Assembly: GCA_047017005.1 (NCBI GenBank)
Contig: JBKXSZ010000001.1
Span: 32,413-96,412, forward strand
Reading direction: 5' to 3'
Length of the DNA: 64,000 nt
Source of the DNA: Clostridia bacterium
GTDB lineage: Bacteria > Bacillota > Clostridia > TANB77 > CAG-508
Positions 21,365-31,702 of the stretch are shown here, one piece after another (the stretch's first letter is position 1; every line of letters begins with the position of its first letter). The notes beneath the pieces were generated by a model, which saw only the letters and a program-made list of their open reading frames with translations, did not search any database and was not told the DNA's origin. A program made the translations under genes and the position numbers.

Positions 21365-21438
21365 TGGAGGCGACACCCGGATTTGAACCGAGGATCAGAG
21401 TTTTGCAGACTCGTGCCTTACCACTTGGCTATGTCGCC
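21365..21438 (-). tRNA. tRNA-Cys (GCA), copy A, with encoded CCA
   Basis: The reverse complement reads GGCGACATAGCCAAGTGGTAAGGCACGAGTCTGCAAAACTCTGATCCTCGGTTCAAATCCGGGTGTCGCCTCCA. The cloverleaf has a GTGG D-loop, a CTGCAAA anticodon loop and a TTCAAAT T-loop. Confidence 0.85.
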
Positions 21439-21493
21439 ATTTATTTTATTGTATGCCCCTACCTTCCATTTTATGACTAATTTAAATGGAGCG
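21365..21493. repeat. Direct repeat copy A: tRNA-Cys, a 48-nt spacer and the 7-nt 3' terminus of tRNA-Gly (TGGAGCG); left boundary of the island
   Basis: It aligns with 31525-31633. The tRNA-Cys copies differ at 2 positions in the T-arm and the spacers differ by a 20-nt indel. Similarity ends exactly at the tRNA-Cys 3' end on one side and 7 nt into tRNA-Gly on the other. Confidence 0.6.
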
Positions 21494-21786
21494 AGGAGCG
21501 TCGCTCACCCTTCATAACCTATGACTTTATGCTATGTTCATACGGCTTTAAATAAAGTTATAAACATTATCTTTTAAAATACTAATTTTTAACCAACAAT
21601 CCTATTGTTTCTAAATTAGCTAAGAAAATCAGGGTTAAAGAAAAACCTACTAAAAGCCTGCAAGAAAAAGAAAAACTAGGATGGTATAATTTTTTAATTT
21701 ATGATAAAATCATCTCAAATAGTAATGTGTAGGAGCGATAGAATATGAAAGATAAGTGATATATTTATTACCGTATATATATTTTT

Positions 21787-21836
21787 TTCTTGCTTGACTT
21801 CTACATAAGTGTATTTACATAGAAATCAAGCAAGAA
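21787..21836. repeat. Imperfect palindrome TTCTTGCTTGA-N28-TCAAGCAAGAA inside the island's left arm
   Basis: 11-bp perfect inverted repeat arms with a 28-nt spacer, in a 455-bp non-coding stretch between the left junction and the GH25 gene. Confidence 0.3.
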
Positions 21837-21948
21837 GAGTTTTGAATATTGCCATTTGAGTTCAACATAAATCAAATTGATTCTATCTATTGAAATAATA
21901 TATTCTTATCATTCTAATCTCATAACAAGCTCTCCTTATTCAAACAAA

Positions 21949-22680
21949 TTATTCGTTAAATAATTTGTTAAATTCTTTAGCATTTCCGTTAAAAACATTC
22001 ATATCTATTCGATTTTCTTTACCATCATATCCTATTAGTCTGGCTTTATTAGTAAACTGCCAAAATGTCCACTCTCGATTATCCTTCAATTTTGGAGTAA
22101 AATAAACATCTCTAATCCAAATAGCATTATCGTTAAAATTATTTGCTATATATAAATTATAAGATTTATAAGTTGCATATATAATTGGCTTTTTTTCATA
22201 ATAATCTTCTAATCGTTTCAACATTATTCCTAACTGTTTTTGAGTTTCTTCTACATTCGGAATATTTCTTTGTTTATCTCCGTAAAATTCAATATCTATT
22301 GCTGGTGCAAGCATATCATCTGTTTTTGGTACATTTCTTATAAAATTGTCTGCCTGTCTATTTCCCTGACTGTCATAACTAAAAAAGTGGTATGCTCCTA
22401 CCTTCAAGTTTGTTTTCCTAGCATTTTCGTAATTTATATTAAAACTTCTATCTACAAAATAACTACCTTCTGTTGCTTTAATAAAAGCAAATTTTATTCC
22501 TTGATTTGATAAACTATCCCAATCAATATTTCCTTGATAATCCGAAACGTCTACTCCTCTAATTTCATATTTTTCCTCTGATGGATAATTAAATATAATT
22601 ATTCCAAAATACCAAAGAATAAATAATATTATAATAATTATTGCTATTAAACTTGTTATAATCAAAACTCTCTTTTTCAC
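21949..22680 (-). CDS. Membrane-anchored GH25-family lysozyme (N-acetylmuramidase)
   Basis: 243 aa. N-terminal TM helix (LIITSLIAIIIIILFILWYFGIII), then the GH25 signature RGVDVSDYQGNIDWDSLSNQGIKFAFIKATEG...VGAYHFF. Confidence 0.7.
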   Translation of the reverse strand: MKKRVLIITSLIAIIIIILFILWYFGIIIFNYPSEEKYEIRGVDVSDYQGNIDWDSLSNQGIKFAFIKATEGSYFVDRSFNINYENARKTNLKVGAYHFFSYDSQGNRQADNFIRNVPKTDDMLAPAIDIEFYGDKQRNIPNVEETQKQLGIMLKRLEDYYEKKPIIYATYKSYNLYIANNFNDNAIWIRDVYFTPKLKDNREWTFWQFTNKARLIGYDGKENRIDMNVFNGNAKEFNKLFNE

Positions 22681-22860
22681 TATTTTTCTCCTATTCGATA
22701 AATAATAAATTTGTATAATTTTTCTTTATCCTTCTTACATATTAAAATAAATACTATAGCTAATACGCATTTATAGAAGTTCCATTTTCCTACATATACT
22801 TTATAAAAGTCTTCATTAATAAAAATACTATTATGTTAAATACTAATATTGTAAAAATGC

Positions 22861-23259
22861 TTAATATATAATTAAATTTAATATTTTTGGAATAAATATA
22901 ATCAATCCTATTATTGCAGCTCCAATCGCTAATACAAGTACCCCACTCGCTGAAATATCTTTTGCAATTTTAGCTTTTTCATTTTTATAGGGCATTGCAA
23001 TATCTACAGTTTTTTCAAGAGCTGTATTAAATAATTCTCCTGCAATGACAGTAGAAAATAGTATGATACAAACAATCCATTCACTACAACTAATTTTTAG
23101 TAAAATTCCCATTAATATTACTAAAATCATGATTGTTATATGTATTTTCATGTTTCTTTCTGTTTGAAATGCAGAAAGAAATCCTTCAAAAGCATACTTA
23201 AAACTATTGACTATCTTTTTTGTTTTTACTTTTATTATTCTTTTTCTTCTTAATTTCAT
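22861..23259 (-). CDS. dgkA: Prokaryotic diacylglycerol/undecaprenol kinase (DgkA family)
   Basis: 132 aa with 3 TM. The DgkA signature AGELFNTALEKTVDIAMP matches E-x-x-N-[ST]-A-[IL]-E. Confidence 0.7.
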   Translation of the reverse strand: MKLRRKRIIKVKTKKIVNSFKYAFEGFLSAFQTERNMKIHITIMILVILMGILLKISCSEWIVCIILFSTVIAGELFNTALEKTVDIAMPYKNEKAKIAKDISASGVLVLAIGAAIIGLIIFIPKILNLIIY

Positions 23260-23261
23260 AA

Positions 23262-30954: not shown

Positions 30955-30979
30955 TTTTCAAACCTCCAATCTAATAAAA

Positions 30980-31018
30980 AAGAGACATCAAAGTACACGA
31001 GTACAGCTGACATCTCTT
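30980..31018 (-). terminator. Imperfect palindrome AAGAGACATCA-N17-TGACATCTCTT immediately upstream of the recombinase RBS; acts as a terminator or insulator on the minus strand (followed by TTTTTT)
   Basis: 9 of 11 bp complementary arms. On the minus strand the stem is followed by TTTTTTATTAGATTGGAGG and the recombinase ATG. Confidence 0.35.
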
Positions 31019-31495
31019 AAATCCATTTATCATAAACTAAAATATAATAATGCAATATAATATAATTTTTTCAAAGTACTCATAGTTATATAGCTATTGA
31101 CGGATAGCTGTACATAATTTGTTGTCTATATTATATCACGATTTTAAAAAATGTCAAATATTTACAATTCATATATTTTTCAAATATTCTTCTAACTCTG
31201 ATAATTTAATCTTTTTAGTCAAATTTGATATATACACATCATTTGAATAATCAAAAACTAAAAAAGTAATATTCTTAATAATTACGTTTTCTAATGCTAC
31301 CATTTATAAAAGTAGGGGTAACTTTAGAAAACTCACATATAAATTCAAGCCTTTGCTTTAGACTTTCCTCAAATTGTAATTCTTGCTTAATTATCTTCAT
31401 TTTTTACACCATCCTTTCGTTTGGACGATTTTAATATTGCTTTTAGGCAACAAAAAAATCAACCAGATTTTATTTTCTGATTGATTTTGTATCAA

Positions 31496-31517
31496 TTCTG
31501 TTCTAGTTCGAACAGAA
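31496..31517 (-). terminator. Terminator downstream of tRNA-Cys copy B
   Basis: 8-bp perfect stem TTCTGTTC/GAACAGAA with a 6-nt loop, 8 nt after the tRNA 3' end, followed by a T-rich run. Confidence 0.4.
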
Positions 31518-31524
31518 ACGTCGT

Positions 31525-31598
31525 TGGAGGCGACACCCGGATTCGAACCGGGGATCAGAGTTTTGCAGACTCGTGCCTTACCACTTGGCTATGTCGCC
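31525..31598 (-). tRNA. tRNA-Cys (GCA), copy B
   Basis: Identical to copy A except for 2 T-arm substitutions (CCCCGGTTCGAATCC versus CCTCGGTTCAAATCC). Both variants maintain the stem pairing. Confidence 0.85.
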
Positions 31599-31633
31599 AT
31601 CTATTTTATTGATAGCCTAATTTAAATGGAGCG
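31525..31633. repeat. Direct repeat copy B (tRNA-Cys, 28-nt spacer and the first 7 nt of the tRNA-Gly 3' end); right boundary of the island
   Basis: See copy A. Confidence 0.6.
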
Positions 31634-31702
31634 GGAAACGGGGCTCAAACCCGCGACCTCTGCCTTGGCAAGGCAGCGCTCTATCAACTGAGCTATTCCC
31701 GC
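31627..31702 (-). tRNA. tRNA-Gly (GCC) with encoded CCA
   Basis: The reverse complement reads GCGGGAATAGCTCAGTTGATAGAGCGCTGCCTTGCCAAGGCAGAGGTCGCGGGTTTGAGCCCCGTTTCCCGCTCCA. The anticodon loop is CTTGCCAAG. Confidence 0.85.

What the first reader, a model, noticed from the sequence alone, without database searches (positions are those of the whole stretch)
21365..31702. 10-kb island bracketed by a duplicated tRNA-Cys plus tRNA-Gly 3' fragment, carrying a large serine recombinase
Segments 21365-21493 and 31525-31633 are direct repeats. Each holds a full tRNA-Cys (copies differ by 2 T-arm substitutions that preserve pairing), a spacer (20-nt indel) and TGGAGCG, the 3' end of tRNA-Gly. tRNA-Gly is intact only at the right copy. 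Each tRNA-Cys copy has its own different downstream terminator, so the repeat starts exactly at the tRNA 3' end. Between the repeats lie a serine integrase gene 570 bp inside the right junction and accessory cargo. Serine integrases act on short att sites with a 2-bp crossover and do not create ~110-bp duplications. The repeat therefore implies either an element that carries its own tRNA-Cys-containing att region, or Campbell-type integration or duplication by homologous recombination at the tRNA-Cys locus.
Basis: seen in the sequence. Interest (0 to 1): 0.7.

Follow-up and report, generated by a model that had tools for sequence, protein, structure and literature searches.

The report
Decayed serine-integrase element at tRNA-Cys
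The duplicated tRNA-Cys is real but does not mark the ends of the mobile element: the serine recombinase belongs to a much smaller, half-decayed 3.7-kb insertion that sits exactly at the CCA end of one tRNA-Cys, and it is one copy of a widespread gut-Clostridia family of small mobilizable elements that, unusually for serine integrases, always target tRNA 3' ends.

Summary
Two tRNA-Cys(GCA) genes (21365-21438 and 31525-31598, minus strand) lie in a 129/109-nt direct repeat that also holds the spacer and a decayed 3' remnant of tRNA-Gly.

Sister strains with 99.1% identical flanks keep both tRNA-Cys copies and the 6.4-kb hydrolase-to-GH25 block. They lack exactly 3,655 bp (27869-31523).

That insert abuts the CCA end of the right tRNA-Cys and shares only CTCCAA with its target. 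Its reconstructed attP is quasi-palindromic around CT (tRNA nt 72-73). This is ordinary serine-integrase behaviour.

The insert is a decayed copy of a 6.6-8.7-kb integrative mobilizable element family (orf89, LSR, Mob_Pre relaxase, cargo). The relaxase is deleted, the upstream ORF is frameshifted, and the integrase has a 17-aa deletion. The family is common in gut Clostridia metagenomes and, in all 20 junctions examined, sits at a tRNA 3' end or tRNA-like ...NCCA stub (tRNA-Cys, tRNA-Leu, stubs beside prophages). Integrases at tRNA-Cys and tRNA-Leu show no discriminating residue. The attP core differs instead.

The older repeat remains unexplained (ancient island at tRNA-Gly, or segmental duplication). 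I found no paper describing serine-integrase IMEs at tRNA ends.

The parts
31627..31702 (-). tRNA-Gly(GCC), intact. First gene of the Gly-Cys tRNA pair.
   Evidence: ARAGORN. Rfam RF00005 at 66.9 bits. Identical in L012/L013.
31525..31598 (-). tRNA-Cys(GCA) copy 1. Its 3' end is the attB left arm of the serine-integrase element. The tRNA stays intact after insertion.
   Evidence: It is 74/74 identical to the tRNA-Cys next to related elements in L017 and L019.
31524..31529 (-). attL core CTCCAA, shared with attR. The inferred crossover dinucleotide is CT at 31529-31528, which is tRNA nt 72-73.
   Evidence: Comparison of attB (L001), attL and attR. The symmetry of the reconstructed attP is read.
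27869..31523 (-). The real mobile insertion: 3,655 bp counting one core copy. It is a decayed serine-recombinase integrative element.
   Evidence: It is absent, precisely, from L001 and L003 (flanks 99.1-99.2% identical) and present in L002 and L011. It is homologous to the elements in L014-L030.
31455..31488 (-). Element-borne intrinsic terminator directly after the tRNA. It replaces the displaced native one and is conserved across the family.
   Evidence: Terminator scan. Alignments.
31169..31400 (-). orf89 pseudogene. A 38-bp deletion near 31285 breaks the frame, giving 41 aa and then a stop. The ORF is intact at 89 aa in relatives and its function is unknown.
   Evidence: Alignment with L017 and L019 plus translation. 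No Pfam or PHROG hit.
31130..31157 (-). Consensus sigma-70-like promoter (TTGACA-16-TGnTATAAT, 12/12) upstream of the recombinase gene. Conserved in relatives.
29086..30954 (-). Large serine recombinase, 622 aa. The catalytic motif YMRVSTEDQ is present. It carries an in-frame 17-aa deletion after residue 463 relative to the 639-aa relatives.
   Evidence: Pfam Resolvase 7e-33 and Recombinase 3e-17. PHROG 95 integrase 6e-108 for the L017 copy. PDB TP901-1 integrase 1.5e-21. Alignment. CPKC...CNDC motif.
29054..29080 (-). Junction of a ~2.9-kb internal deletion relative to the L017 element. The deletion removed the LSR-mob intergenic region, the Mob_Pre relaxase, orf101 and the N-terminal 241 aa of the cargo gene.
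   Evidence: blastn: window 31598-29061 matches L017 7050-9680, and window 29068-27868 matches L017 12552-13752. Junction sequences.
28386..29021 (-). 5'-truncated remnant (211 aa) of a 452-aa transglutaminase-core (cysteine-protease-fold) cargo protein.
   Evidence: Pfam Transglut_core 2.6e-7. 97.6% identical to the C-terminal half of the L017 protein.
27869..28169 (-). Conserved right end of the element. It holds an outward promoter-like site (27970-27943), the palindrome GATTGAT...ATCAATC, the P arm AAAGTTGTAGATAACTACGACGTTCG, and the core CTCCAA (27874-27869).
   Evidence: nhmmer profile hit at 5.9e-89. Six-member alignment. Junction table.
27821..27868 (-). Native sequence downstream of tRNA-Cys copy 1 (the attB right arm) with its native terminator. 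In empty-site strains it is contiguous with the tRNA.
   Evidence: L001 and L003 junctions. Terminator scan.
21949..27253 (-). Resident 6.4-kb block with no mobility gene, present with or without the integrase element. Its genes are: alpha/beta hydrolase (26618-27253), C45/AAT-family peptidase (25311-26318), orf68 (24958-25164), EamA transporter (23997-24854), PAP2 phosphatase (23262-23912), diacylglycerol kinase (22861-23259) and GH25 lysozyme (21949-22680).
   Evidence: Pfam. Synteny in L001 and L003. AAT homologues elsewhere ride on ICE or relaxase-bearing elements.
21487..21513 (-). Decayed remnant of the 3' ~27 nt of a tRNA-Gly. The last 7 nt, CGCTCCA, are exact.
   Evidence: It varies between strains. 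It is not an att relic of the LSR family.
21365..21486 (-). 48-nt spacer (21439-21486) plus tRNA-Cys(GCA) copy 2 (21365-21438). This is the left member of the direct repeat.
21339..21363 (-). Intrinsic terminator after tRNA-Cys copy 2.

Best explanation
The interval is a composite of two unrelated events.

(1) Recent event, shown by comparison. A small integrative element of 3,655 bp (27869-31523) inserted by large-serine-recombinase site-specific recombination at the 3' end of tRNA-Cys copy 1. The sites are:
- attB: ...GGGTGTCGC[CT]CCAATATCGG...
- attL: ...GTCGC[CT]CCAACGACGTTTCTGTTCGAAC...
- attR: ...AACTACGACGTTCG[CT]CCAATATCGG...
Only CTCCAA is shared. The reconstructed attP is quasi-palindromic, with inner arms ACGACGTTCG and ACGTCGTTGG matching at 8/10 around CT. 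I therefore infer that the 2-bp crossover is CT, the last acceptor-stem base plus the discriminator U73. The element then re-supplies the CCA and a terminator, and the tRNA stays intact.

The element is a degenerate member of a family of integrative mobilizable elements laid out as orf89, LSR (639 aa), Mob_Pre (MobV) relaxase, orf~100, variable cargo, and a conserved ~105-nt right end. In this copy:
- orf89 is frameshifted.
- The LSR has lost 17 aa.
- The relaxase, the probable oriT region and half of the cargo gene are deleted.
It can no longer be mobilized and may no longer excise.

Family members sit at tRNA-Cys, at tRNA-Leu(TAA), and at tRNA-3'-like stubs beside prophages. The attP central dinucleotide always matches the target (CT, CA or TA). 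Integrases at tRNA-Cys and tRNA-Leu have no diagnostic residue difference. I infer that the enzyme reads generic tRNA 3'-end features, namely the T-loop GTTCGANTC about 12 nt from the crossover plus the CCA. The attP core would then decide which tRNA is usable.

(2) Older event, inferred. The 129/109-nt repeat (tRNA-Gly 3' remnant, spacer, tRNA-Cys) brackets a 6.4-kb block. The block is fixed in every sampled strain of this species and has no recombinase. The repeat therefore pre-exists the integrase element and was not made by it.
For: Empty site:
- L001 and L003 (independent samples, plus 5 similar places not shown) join window 31524 directly to 27868. Flanks are 99.1-99.2% identical. Both tRNA-Cys genes and the whole hydrolase-to-GH25 block are retained.
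- Occupied site: L002 (99.85% identical) and L011 (100%).

Integrase identity:
- Pfam Resolvase and Recombinase domains.
- Catalytic motif RVS and CPKC...CNDC.
- TP901-1 integrase is the best PDB hit. PHROG 95 integrase.

Family and canonical layout:
-.
- The window copy equals the L017 copy minus 2.87 kb; its right 1.2 kb is 99% identical and its left part 92%.
- orf89 38-bp deletion. 17-aa LSR deletion.

Junction tables, all ending in ...NCCA | P' arm:
- tRNA-Cys in WIN, L002, L017, L018 and L019.
- tRNA-Leu in L014-L016.
- tRNA-like stubs in L020-L030.
- P-arm cores match the targets in WIN, L017 and L026 (CT), L019 (CT), L016 (CA) and L021 (TA).

Other points:
- No residue discriminates Cys-type from Leu-type. 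L015 and L019 are 93-99% identical per domain.
- The element carries a terminator, and the native terminator is displaced.
- Profiles of the family's ends hit nowhere else in the window.
Against: - No circular form or attP junction was found. The viral-contig search gave 0 hits, and the other collections could not be searched for it. Current activity is therefore unproven, and the empty sites could be ancestral rather than products of excision.
- The crossover dinucleotide is inferred from symmetry only. Any dinucleotide inside CTCCAA is formally possible.
- The attB right arms (downstream of the tRNA) are unrelated among hosts. That is unusual for a serine integrase and is unexplained.
- Several IMG/VR junctions lack a recognizable T-arm (L021, L022, L023, L027). 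This weakens the idea that the T-loop is a required recognition element, unless a prophage inserted later between the tRNA and the element.
- The origin of the older repeat is not resolved.
Confidence: 0.88

Rival explanations
1. First reader's model. The whole 10-kb interval (21494-31524) is one island that carries the serine recombinase and its cargo. It would be delimited by the tRNA-Cys/Gly-fragment repeat, which would serve as or derive from its att sites.
For: The repeat brackets the interval, and the recombinase lies near one end.
Against: - Strains lacking the recombinase keep both repeat copies and the 6.4-kb 'cargo'.
- The recombinase element has its own conserved ends at 31523 and 27869, shared with relatives in other hosts.
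- Relatives carry quite different cargo, and none has the hydrolase-to-GH25 block.
Confidence: 0.03
2. Sub-hypothesis for the older repeat. [quoted passage not shown] The island carried its own spacer plus tRNA-Cys (copy 1) next to its att site. The displaced native tRNA-Gly 3' end, spacer, tRNA-Cys copy 2 and terminator remain at the far border. The 6.4-kb block is what is left of the island.
For: - There is a sharp switch from an exact 16-19-nt block (CCCGCTCCATTTAAATTAG in L001) to only 12/20 identity further into tRNA-Gly. This looks like an att core boundary rather than uniform decay.
- tRNA 3' stubs left by tandem integrations are seen directly at related loci (L020, L024, L026).
- The closest homologues of the block's AAT gene (74-77%), and the hydrolase (58%), ride on ICE or relaxase-bearing elements elsewhere.
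- Block genes are slightly AT-richer than the rest of the window (p=0.003).
- tRNA-Cys copy 1, not copy 2, is the variant shared with other hosts.
Against: - The block has no integrase, relaxase or other mobility gene.
- No strain or sister taxon lacking the block was found.
- The composition signal is weak. Three of the six genes encode membrane proteins, and GC3 gives p=0.06.
- The model requires the island to have carried about 100 nt homologous to the chromosomal Gly-Cys spacer and tRNA-Cys.
- The rest of the block is not syntenic with any mobile element found.
Confidence: 0.4
3. Alternative for the older repeat. An ordinary segmental (tandem) duplication of the tRNA-Gly/tRNA-Cys unit occurred in an ancestor. 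The 5' two-thirds of the second tRNA-Gly were later lost, and the intervening genes were acquired or rearranged. No site-specific recombination is involved.
For: - The two copies are homologous along their whole length, including the spacer, apart from one clean 20-nt indel.
- The non-functional Gly remnant is decaying and differs between strains, while tRNA-Cys is conserved.
- tRNA gene duplications are common (established knowledge).
- The block is fixed in all sampled strains and lacks mobility genes.
Against: - The repeat ends exactly at the CCA of tRNA-Cys and starts inside the 3' end of tRNA-Gly. Both are classic recombinase target positions, which is an unlikely coincidence for random duplication endpoints.
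- Divergence along the repeat is strongly non-uniform: 0/16 next to 8/20.
- 6.4 kb of unrelated genes lies between the copies.
Confidence: 0.35
4. The left Gly fragment is an old attR left by a member of the same serine-integrase family that once integrated at tRNA-Gly. The 3' end of tRNA-Gly, CG[CT]CCA, matches the element's attP core even better than tRNA-Cys does.
For: - The element's P arm ends in TCGCTCCA, which is identical to the last 8 nt of the window's fragment. tRNA-Gly has the same CT+CCA.
- L026 shows a family member at a Gly-like ...CCCGCTCCA stub.
Against: - nhmmer profiles of the family's 300-nt right end and 250-nt left end find nothing near 21494-21950.
- Local alignment of the P arm to the fragment scores no better than 59 of 607 control windows ending in TCCA.
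- tRNA-Gly is followed by a spacer and tRNA-Cys, not by a P' arm.
Confidence: 0.05
5. The repeat or the insertion is an assembly artefact, i.e. mis-joined contigs at a repeated tRNA.
For: Many short-read contigs of this species break at the tRNA-Cys repeat (L004-L010).
Against: - Independent assemblies from different samples reproduce both the occupied arrangement (L002, L011) and the empty one (L001, L003), with base-exact junctions.
- Each repeat copy has unique flanks.
Confidence: 0.02

Closest known systems
Tn4451/Tn4453 mobilizable transposons of Clostridium perfringens and Clostridioides difficile (TnpX large serine recombinase plus TnpZ Mob/Pre relaxase)
   Same: A small (~6 kb) clostridial integrative mobilizable element whose only recombinase is a large serine recombinase, combined with a Mob_Pre (MobV) relaxase. 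A circular intermediate and a 2-bp crossover are expected (PMC5704250).
   Different: - TnpX has low target specificity with a GA crossover and does not target tRNA genes.
- The similarity here is limited to the catalytic domain (PDB 2mhc TnpX, E=6e-6).
- Gene order and accessory genes differ.
- The window copy has lost its relaxase.
Streptococcal IMEs with a serine recombinase and a MobV relaxase (e.g. IME_SsuNSUI084_SNF2, IMEs in PPI, rumA and traG)
   Same: The same modular make-up (serine integrase plus PF01076 relaxase plus cargo), site-specific integration with very short direct repeats, and frequent decayed copies (PMC5704250, PMC7168690).
   Different: - Those elements integrate inside protein-coding genes and disrupt them.
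- This family integrates at the extreme 3' end of tRNA genes and preserves them.
- No close sequence relationship was tested or seen. Annotated LSRs in the phage and plasmid collections are at most 30% identical.
tRNA-targeting islands and IMEs with tyrosine integrases (NBU1 at tRNA-Leu, IME_Sag2603_tRNAlys, many prophages)
   Same: The target is the 3' end of a tRNA gene, the gene is reconstituted, and elements accrete in tandem with other elements at the same tRNA (PMC5704250). tRNA 3' stubs are seen next to prophages in L020-L026.
   Different: - The recombinase family and mechanism differ (serine, not tyrosine).
- Only 6-8 bp are shared between attP and attB, rather than the ~15-50-bp tRNA-derived direct repeat typical of tyrosine systems.
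- The crossover sits at nt 72-73, next to the CCA.
Phage large serine integrases (TP901-1, A118/LI, phiC31, Bxb1)
   Same: Domain architecture (resolvase catalytic domain, recombinase domain, zinc ribbon). A quasi-palindromic attP. Minimal identity between attP and attB. A requirement for matching central dinucleotides (established knowledge). TP901-1 is the best structural relative.
   Different: - Identity is 27-30% over the first ~450 residues.
- There is an extra ~170-aa C-terminal region.
- The carrier is an IME rather than a phage.
- Known examples target ORFs or intergenic sites, not tRNA ends.
- The attB right arm appears unconstrained here.

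Membership tests
Large serine recombinase (serine integrase) | N-terminal resolvase-type catalytic domain with the nucleophilic serine | tested here: met
   PF00239 at E=7.3e-33, residues 10-156. Motif YMRVSTEDQ at residues 11-19.
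Large serine recombinase (serine integrase) | Recombinase domain (PF07508) following the catalytic domain | tested here: met
   PF07508 at E=2.9e-17, residues 179-266.
Large serine recombinase (serine integrase) | Zinc-ribbon domain with four cysteines | tested here: inconclusive
   PF13408 scores 17.6 bits, below the curated 25.3. However, CPKC (284) and CNDC (309) are present at the expected place.
Large serine recombinase (serine integrase) | Integration with only a few bp of attP/attB identity and a 2-bp crossover; no long direct repeat | tested here: met
   attB, attL and attR share only CTCCAA. Other family members share 6-8 bp. The exact 2-bp crossover is inferred, not shown.
Large serine recombinase (serine integrase) | Quasi-palindromic attP centred on the crossover | tested here: met
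   The inner arms match 8/10 around CT in the Cys type and 8/10 around CA in the Leu type. This was read from the junction sequences.
Large serine recombinase (serine integrase) | Catalyses attP x attB recombination | not testable with these tools
   Only natural occupied and empty sites were observed.
Integrative mobilizable element (IME) | Encodes its own integrase and is bounded by att sites, with an empty site in related genomes | tested here: met
Integrative mobilizable element (IME) | Carries a relaxase and/or oriT for mobilization | tested here: not met
   The window copy has none. A 2.87-kb deletion removed Mob_Pre and the upstream intergenic region. Relatives do have a Mob_Pre relaxase of 460-479 aa. 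The window copy is therefore a decayed derivative of an IME.
Integrative mobilizable element (IME) | Excises as a circle | tested here: inconclusive
   An exact search for the attP junction in viral contigs gave 0 hits. The ~3.7-kb contigs carrying relatives are not circular. The relevant metagenomes could not be searched.
Tn4451/Tn4453 family | TnpX-type recombinase, GA crossover and low target specificity | tested here: not met
   Only weak catalytic-domain similarity to TnpX (E=6e-6). All 20 junctions examined (19 loci plus the window) are at ...NCCA tRNA ends with CT, CA or TA cores.
tRNA-inserted genomic island with tyrosine integrase (considered for the 110-nt repeat and the 6.4-kb block) | Direct repeats made of the tRNA 3' end at both borders | tested here: met
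   Gly 3' remnant plus an exact 16-19-nt block at 21477-21513, matching 31617-31653.
tRNA-inserted genomic island with tyrosine integrase (considered for the 110-nt repeat and the 6.4-kb block) | Integrase gene next to one border | tested here: not met
   No Phage_integrase or other recombinase in 21494-27868. The only recombinase belongs to the nested 3.65-kb element.
tRNA-inserted genomic island with tyrosine integrase (considered for the 110-nt repeat and the 6.4-kb block) | Empty site in related genomes | tested here: inconclusive
   - None was found among 23 contigs of the species.
- No sister species is available.
- The JGI scans were uninformative because the organism is absent from that collection.
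- There is no record for the flanking TED protein.

The most novel reading that the evidence does not exclude
This is a previously undescribed lineage of large serine integrases that uses the 3' acceptor, discriminator and CCA end of tRNA genes as attB. The choice of tRNA (Cys or Gly-like with C72-U73, Leu with C72-A73, and others) would be set by the central dinucleotide and inner arms of attP rather than by changes in the protein. It would then be a naturally 're-addressable' serine integrase carried by small MobV-type mobilizable elements that pile up with prophages at tRNA hotspots in gut Clostridia.
Probability: 0.4. Interest if true: 0.65.

Novelty: new variant of a known kind. Interest (0 to 1): 0.42.

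Why it matters
For the window itself, this removes an apparent paradox of a serine integrase with a 110-bp 'att' duplication. It also corrects the element boundaries from 10 kb to 3.65 kb. The hydrolase-to-GH25 genes are resident genes in this species, not integrase cargo.

More generally, the comparison uncovers an abundant gut-metagenome family of serine-integrase/MobV elements that target tRNA 3' ends without destroying them. The reviews I could read attribute that niche to tyrosine integrases (PMC5704250). The large LSR survey (PMC10083194) does not mention tRNA in its main text.

Nearly identical integrases work at tRNA-Cys and tRNA-Leu with different attP cores. The family is therefore a ready-made natural series for asking what sets serine-integrase target choice, which is a practical question for genome engineering. 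It is also a further example of how tRNA loci accumulate tandem mobile elements.

Tried and rejected
1. Gly fragment as an old att site of the same LSR family. Rejected. nhmmer end profiles hit only the element itself, and the P-arm alignment is no better than background.

2. Ancestral site without the 6.4-kb block.
- An exact-pattern scan of JGI metagenomes gave 0 hits. A positive-control pattern also gave 0 hits, so the organism is absent from that collection and the result is uninformative.
- The genome-contig scan anchored on DUF6514 found only 40-42% relatives, on contigs that end right after tRNA-Cys.
- The DUF6514 homologue search returned only the protein itself.
- The exact TED protein is not on record.

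3. Circular form. The ~3.7-kb contigs carrying relatives have no terminal overlap. The attP junction pattern is absent from viral contigs.

4. Named relatives. LSRs in the phage and plasmid collections are at most 30% identical. The block DNA has only scattered single-gene matches.

5. The tRNA-Cys travels with the element. Considered because tRNA-Cys copy 1 is 74/74 identical in L017 and L019. Rejected as unnecessary. The empty site keeps the tRNA, and the positions that vary among clostridial tRNA-Cys genes are exactly the acceptor and T-arm positions that an attB constraint would fix.

6. Protein determinants of Cys versus Leu targeting. No discriminating position exists.

7. Composition as evidence that the block is foreign. 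The signal is weak.

8. Conserved small ORF in the element's right end. None found.

9. Literature. Four searches and three papers were read. None describes a serine-recombinase IME at a tRNA 3' end. Absence from this library is not proof of novelty.

Full report
OBSERVATION

ARAGORN finds three tRNA genes in the window, all on the minus strand: tRNA-Cys(GCA) at 21365-21438 and 31525-31598, and tRNA-Gly(GCC) at 31627-31702. Rfam confirms them. The repeat finder and a MAFFT alignment show one continuous direct repeat of 129 nt on the left and 109 nt on the right.
- tRNA-Cys is 72/74 identical.
- The 12 nt upstream are 11/12 identical.
- A 20-nt indel lies in the spacer.
- An exact CGCTCCATTTAAATTA follows, and similarity then decays (12/20) further into tRNA-Gly.

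The repeat stops exactly at the CCA of tRNA-Cys. Probes for the two tRNA ends occur nowhere else in the 64 kb, with 0 expected by chance. There are three corrections.
- The Gly remnant is about 27 nt long, not 7. It is decaying and differs at two bases between strains.
- One of the two tRNA-Cys substitutions is in the T-stem (C-G to U.G). The other is in the T-loop and is not a paired position.
- The terminator after the right tRNA-Cys is not native (see below).

THE DECISIVE COMPARISON

I looked up the exact DUF6514 protein encoded next to tRNA-Gly (31920-32240). This returned contigs of the same species from independent gut metagenomes. L002 and L011 reproduce the window at 99.85-100% identity. 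L001 and L003 (plus five similar places not shown) have flanks 99.1-99.2% identical to the window but join window 31524 directly to window 27868. They still contain tRNA-Gly, both tRNA-Cys genes, the Gly remnant and all seven genes from the alpha/beta hydrolase to the GH25 lysozyme.

The polymorphic insertion is therefore 3,655 bp (27869-31523), not 10 kb. The repeat and the 6.4-kb 'cargo' exist without the recombinase.

JUNCTIONS AND MECHANISM

Reading the minus strand:
- attB (empty site): ...GGGTGTCGCCTCCAATATCGGAAAACGGC...
- attL: ...GGGTGTCGCCTCCAACGACGTTTCTGTTCGAAC...
- attR: ...AAAGTTGTAGATAACTACGACGTTCGCTCCAATATCGG...

Only CTCCAA is common to attL and attR. The reconstructed attP is ...ACGACGTTCG[CT]CCAACGACGT.... 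Its inner arms, ACGACGTTCG and the reverse complement ACGTCGTTGG, match at 8 of 10 positions around CT. I therefore infer that CT is the 2-bp crossover. This dinucleotide is tRNA position 72 plus the discriminator U73. The element then re-supplies the CCA, and the tRNA remains intact. It scores 65.5 bits in Rfam.

The element also brings an intrinsic terminator directly after the tRNA (31488-31455). The native terminator now lies beyond attR at 27861-27821. The integrase did not make the 110-nt repeat.

THE RECOMBINASE

The 622-aa protein (29086-30954) has these features:
- Resolvase (E=7e-33) and Recombinase (E=3e-17) domains, and a sub-threshold zinc-ribbon hit.
- The catalytic motif YMRVSTEDQ.
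- CPKC...CNDC.
- TP901-1 integrase as its best relative of known structure, at 1.5e-21. TnpX scores only 6e-6.

Annotated phage and plasmid LSRs are at most 30% identical.

THE FAMILY

More than 120 proteins of 89-94% identity, mostly 639 aa, exist in gut metagenomes, and some clusters have hundreds of members. I examined twenty junctions in all: the window and 19 further loci (L002, L014-L030).
- In L017, L018 and L019 (three different host backgrounds) the element follows tRNA-Cys(GCA) downstream of tRNA-Gly.
- In L014-L016 it follows tRNA-Leu(TAA).
- In eleven IMG/VR loci it follows a tRNA-3'-like stub (T-arm, acceptor strand, CCA, or shorter). The stub lies at the end of a prophage with tail genes, a DGR reverse transcriptase and an endolysin. 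This is tandem accretion at a tRNA site.

Every junction reads ...NCCA followed by the conserved left end (A/G)(C/T)(G/A)ACGT(T/A)TCTGTTCGAAC. Where the right end is available, the P arm ends in a core that matches the target:
- CG[CT]CCA in WIN, L017 and L026.
- TG[CT]CCA in L019.
- GG[CA]CCA in L016 at tRNA-Leu.
- GG[TA]CCA in L021.

The canonical element is 6.6 kb in L017 and 8.7 kb in L016. Its layout is orf89, LSR, Mob_Pre relaxase (~460 aa), orf~100, variable cargo and a conserved right end. The cargo is a 452-aa transglutaminase-core protein in L017, a GH10 enzyme in L016 and a metallophosphoesterase in L021. The conserved right end of ~105 nt has an outward promoter-like site and a GATTGAT...ATCAATC palindrome. 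The family is thus an integrative mobilizable element family.

THE WINDOW COPY IS DECAYED

Relative to L017:
- orf89 has a 38-bp frame-breaking deletion.
- The LSR lacks 17 residues in frame after residue 463.
- A 2.87-kb deletion removed the LSR-mob intergenic region (the likely oriT), Mob_Pre, orf101 and the first 241 codons of the cargo gene. This leaves the 211-aa ORF at 28386-29021.
- The right 1.2 kb is 99% identical to L017, while the left part is only 92% identical, so the copy is mosaic.
- In L002 the LSR is additionally split into 93 and 523 aa.

The copy cannot be mobilized, and it may or may not still excise.

TARGET CHOICE

No alignment column separates the four Cys-site integrases from the three Leu-site integrases. 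L015 (Leu) and L019 (Cys) are 93-99% identical in every domain.

The left attB arms all carry the T-loop GTTCGA(A/T/G)TC 12 nt from the inferred crossover. P' carries GTTCGAAC 14-15 nt from it. The right attB arms are unrelated among hosts.

My inference is that the enzyme reads generic tRNA 3'-end features. The attP core must match attB at the central dinucleotide in serine integrases (established knowledge for phiC31 and Bxb1). The core would therefore select the tRNA. This is not shown. The IMG/VR junctions without a T-arm argue either against a strict T-loop requirement or for later prophage insertion between the tRNA and the element.

THE OLDER REPEAT

The 6.4-kb block has no mobility gene and is present in every resolved contig of the species.

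Evidence hinting at an old island integrated at tRNA-Gly that carried its own tRNA-Cys:
- The sharp boundary between an exact 16-19-nt block and a poorly conserved Gly remnant.
- Repeat ends at two tRNA 3' ends.
- Direct examples of tRNA stubs left by tandem integrations at related loci.
- The closest non-self homologues of the block's C45/AAT gene (74-77%) and hydrolase (58%) lie on ICE-like or relaxase-bearing elements.
- The block has a slightly lower GC content.

Evidence against it:
- There is no integrase.
- No empty site is known.
- The rest of the block is not syntenic with any mobile element found.
- The composition signal is weak.

A plain segmental duplication followed by decay of the second tRNA-Gly remains about equally likely. 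I tested the idea that the remnant is an old att site of the same LSR family and rejected it. I could not date the event. The organism is an uncultured Clostridia MAG lineage. It has no close sister in the genome collection and is absent from the JGI collection.

COMPARISON WITH KNOWN SYSTEMS

In module content the family works like Tn4451/Tn4453 and like the streptococcal serine-recombinase/MobV IMEs. It is not a member of the Tn4451 family, because it has site-specific tRNA targets, CT/CA/TA cores and only weak similarity to TnpX.

In target choice it behaves like tyrosine-integrase IMEs and prophages that use tRNA 3' ends, but with serine-integrase junctions.
- The 2017 IME review lists tRNA targets only for tyrosine integrases. 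It says serine-recombinase IMEs insert within genes (PMC5704250).
- The S. suis survey agrees (PMC7168690).
- The large LSR discovery paper does not mention tRNA in its main text.

I found no description of this family, but the library I could search is incomplete.

VERDICT

The finding as written is an over-extended reading of a real repeat. What is actually there is a nested, decayed serine-integrase IME at tRNA-Cys, inside an older and unexplained tRNA duplication. The window copy itself is ordinary. The family it belongs to is a new variant of a known kind and moderately interesting.

Noticed in passing
window 38836-49860 (minus strand), with 14159-20972: A type-IV-secretion-like gene set lies just upstream of the tRNA-Gly/Cys locus. 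It comprises a 934-aa CHAP/NlpC-P60 hydrolase, a TrbL-like 816-aa protein, a VirB4-like 656-aa ATPase and a TrbC/VirB2-like pilin. Two large thioester-domain (TED) adhesins lie just downstream. The ICE in L031 that carries the AAT homologue has the same kinds of genes, so the whole 14-50 kb region may be an old composite conjugative region.
   Followed up: partly
L017 6950-7050: A 16-nt 5' fragment of tRNA-Cys (GGCGACATAGCCAAGT) lies about 70 nt upstream of the complete tRNA-Cys that carries the element. This is another partial tRNA duplication at a Gly-Cys locus, and it is unexplained.
   Followed up: no
L018 12128-15445: Directly after the family LSR lies a second, TnpX-like serine recombinase (555 aa, with Zn_ribbon_recom and DUF4368) plus a Mob_Pre relaxase, in the opposite orientation. 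It looks like a Tn4451-like element nested in or abutting the family element.
   Followed up: no
L020-L030 (IMG/VR), e.g. L022 468-8056 and L021 83-7792: The family elements sit right after prophage lysis modules, separated from them by tRNA-3'-like stubs. The L022 prophage carries a DGR-type reverse transcriptase. Many of these LSR copies are frameshifted or truncated.
   Followed up: partly
window 27943-27970 and 27905-27930; 31476-31494: All family members conserve an outward-facing promoter-like site about 75-100 nt from the right end. They also conserve a subterminal inverted repeat (GATTGATWWTTGTATCAA) near both ends, lying outside the expected integrase footprint. These are possible sites for an accessory factor or for regulation across the circular junction.
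   Followed up: partly
window 21787-21836: A 22-nt-arm inverted repeat (86% complementary, 6-nt loop) lies about 110 nt downstream of the GH25 gene. Rfam reports only spurious sub-threshold miRNA matches there. It is probably a terminator or a palindromic element.
   Followed up: no
window 21489-21510: The tRNA-Gly remnant itself folds as a terminator-like hairpin (GGGTGAGCG...CGCTC followed by a T-rich tract). It might serve as a terminator for the GH25 operon.
   Followed up: no
window 12022-13512: A 496-aa ORF of the UPF0236 family lies between the chromosomal kdp/GGDEF region and the TED adhesins. To my recollection this family is transposase-like, but that is not from the Pfam output.
   Followed up: no
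window 18518-19733 and 24059-24863: There are internal repeats inside genes. One is a tandem pair of ~620 nt at 81% identity in the TED adhesin. The other is the two EamA half-domains at 444-nt spacing. These are ordinary domain repeats.
   Followed up: no
L002 11287-13149: In another strain with the occupied site, the recombinase gene is split into 93-aa and 523-aa ORFs. This is further decay of the same element copy.
   Followed up: no
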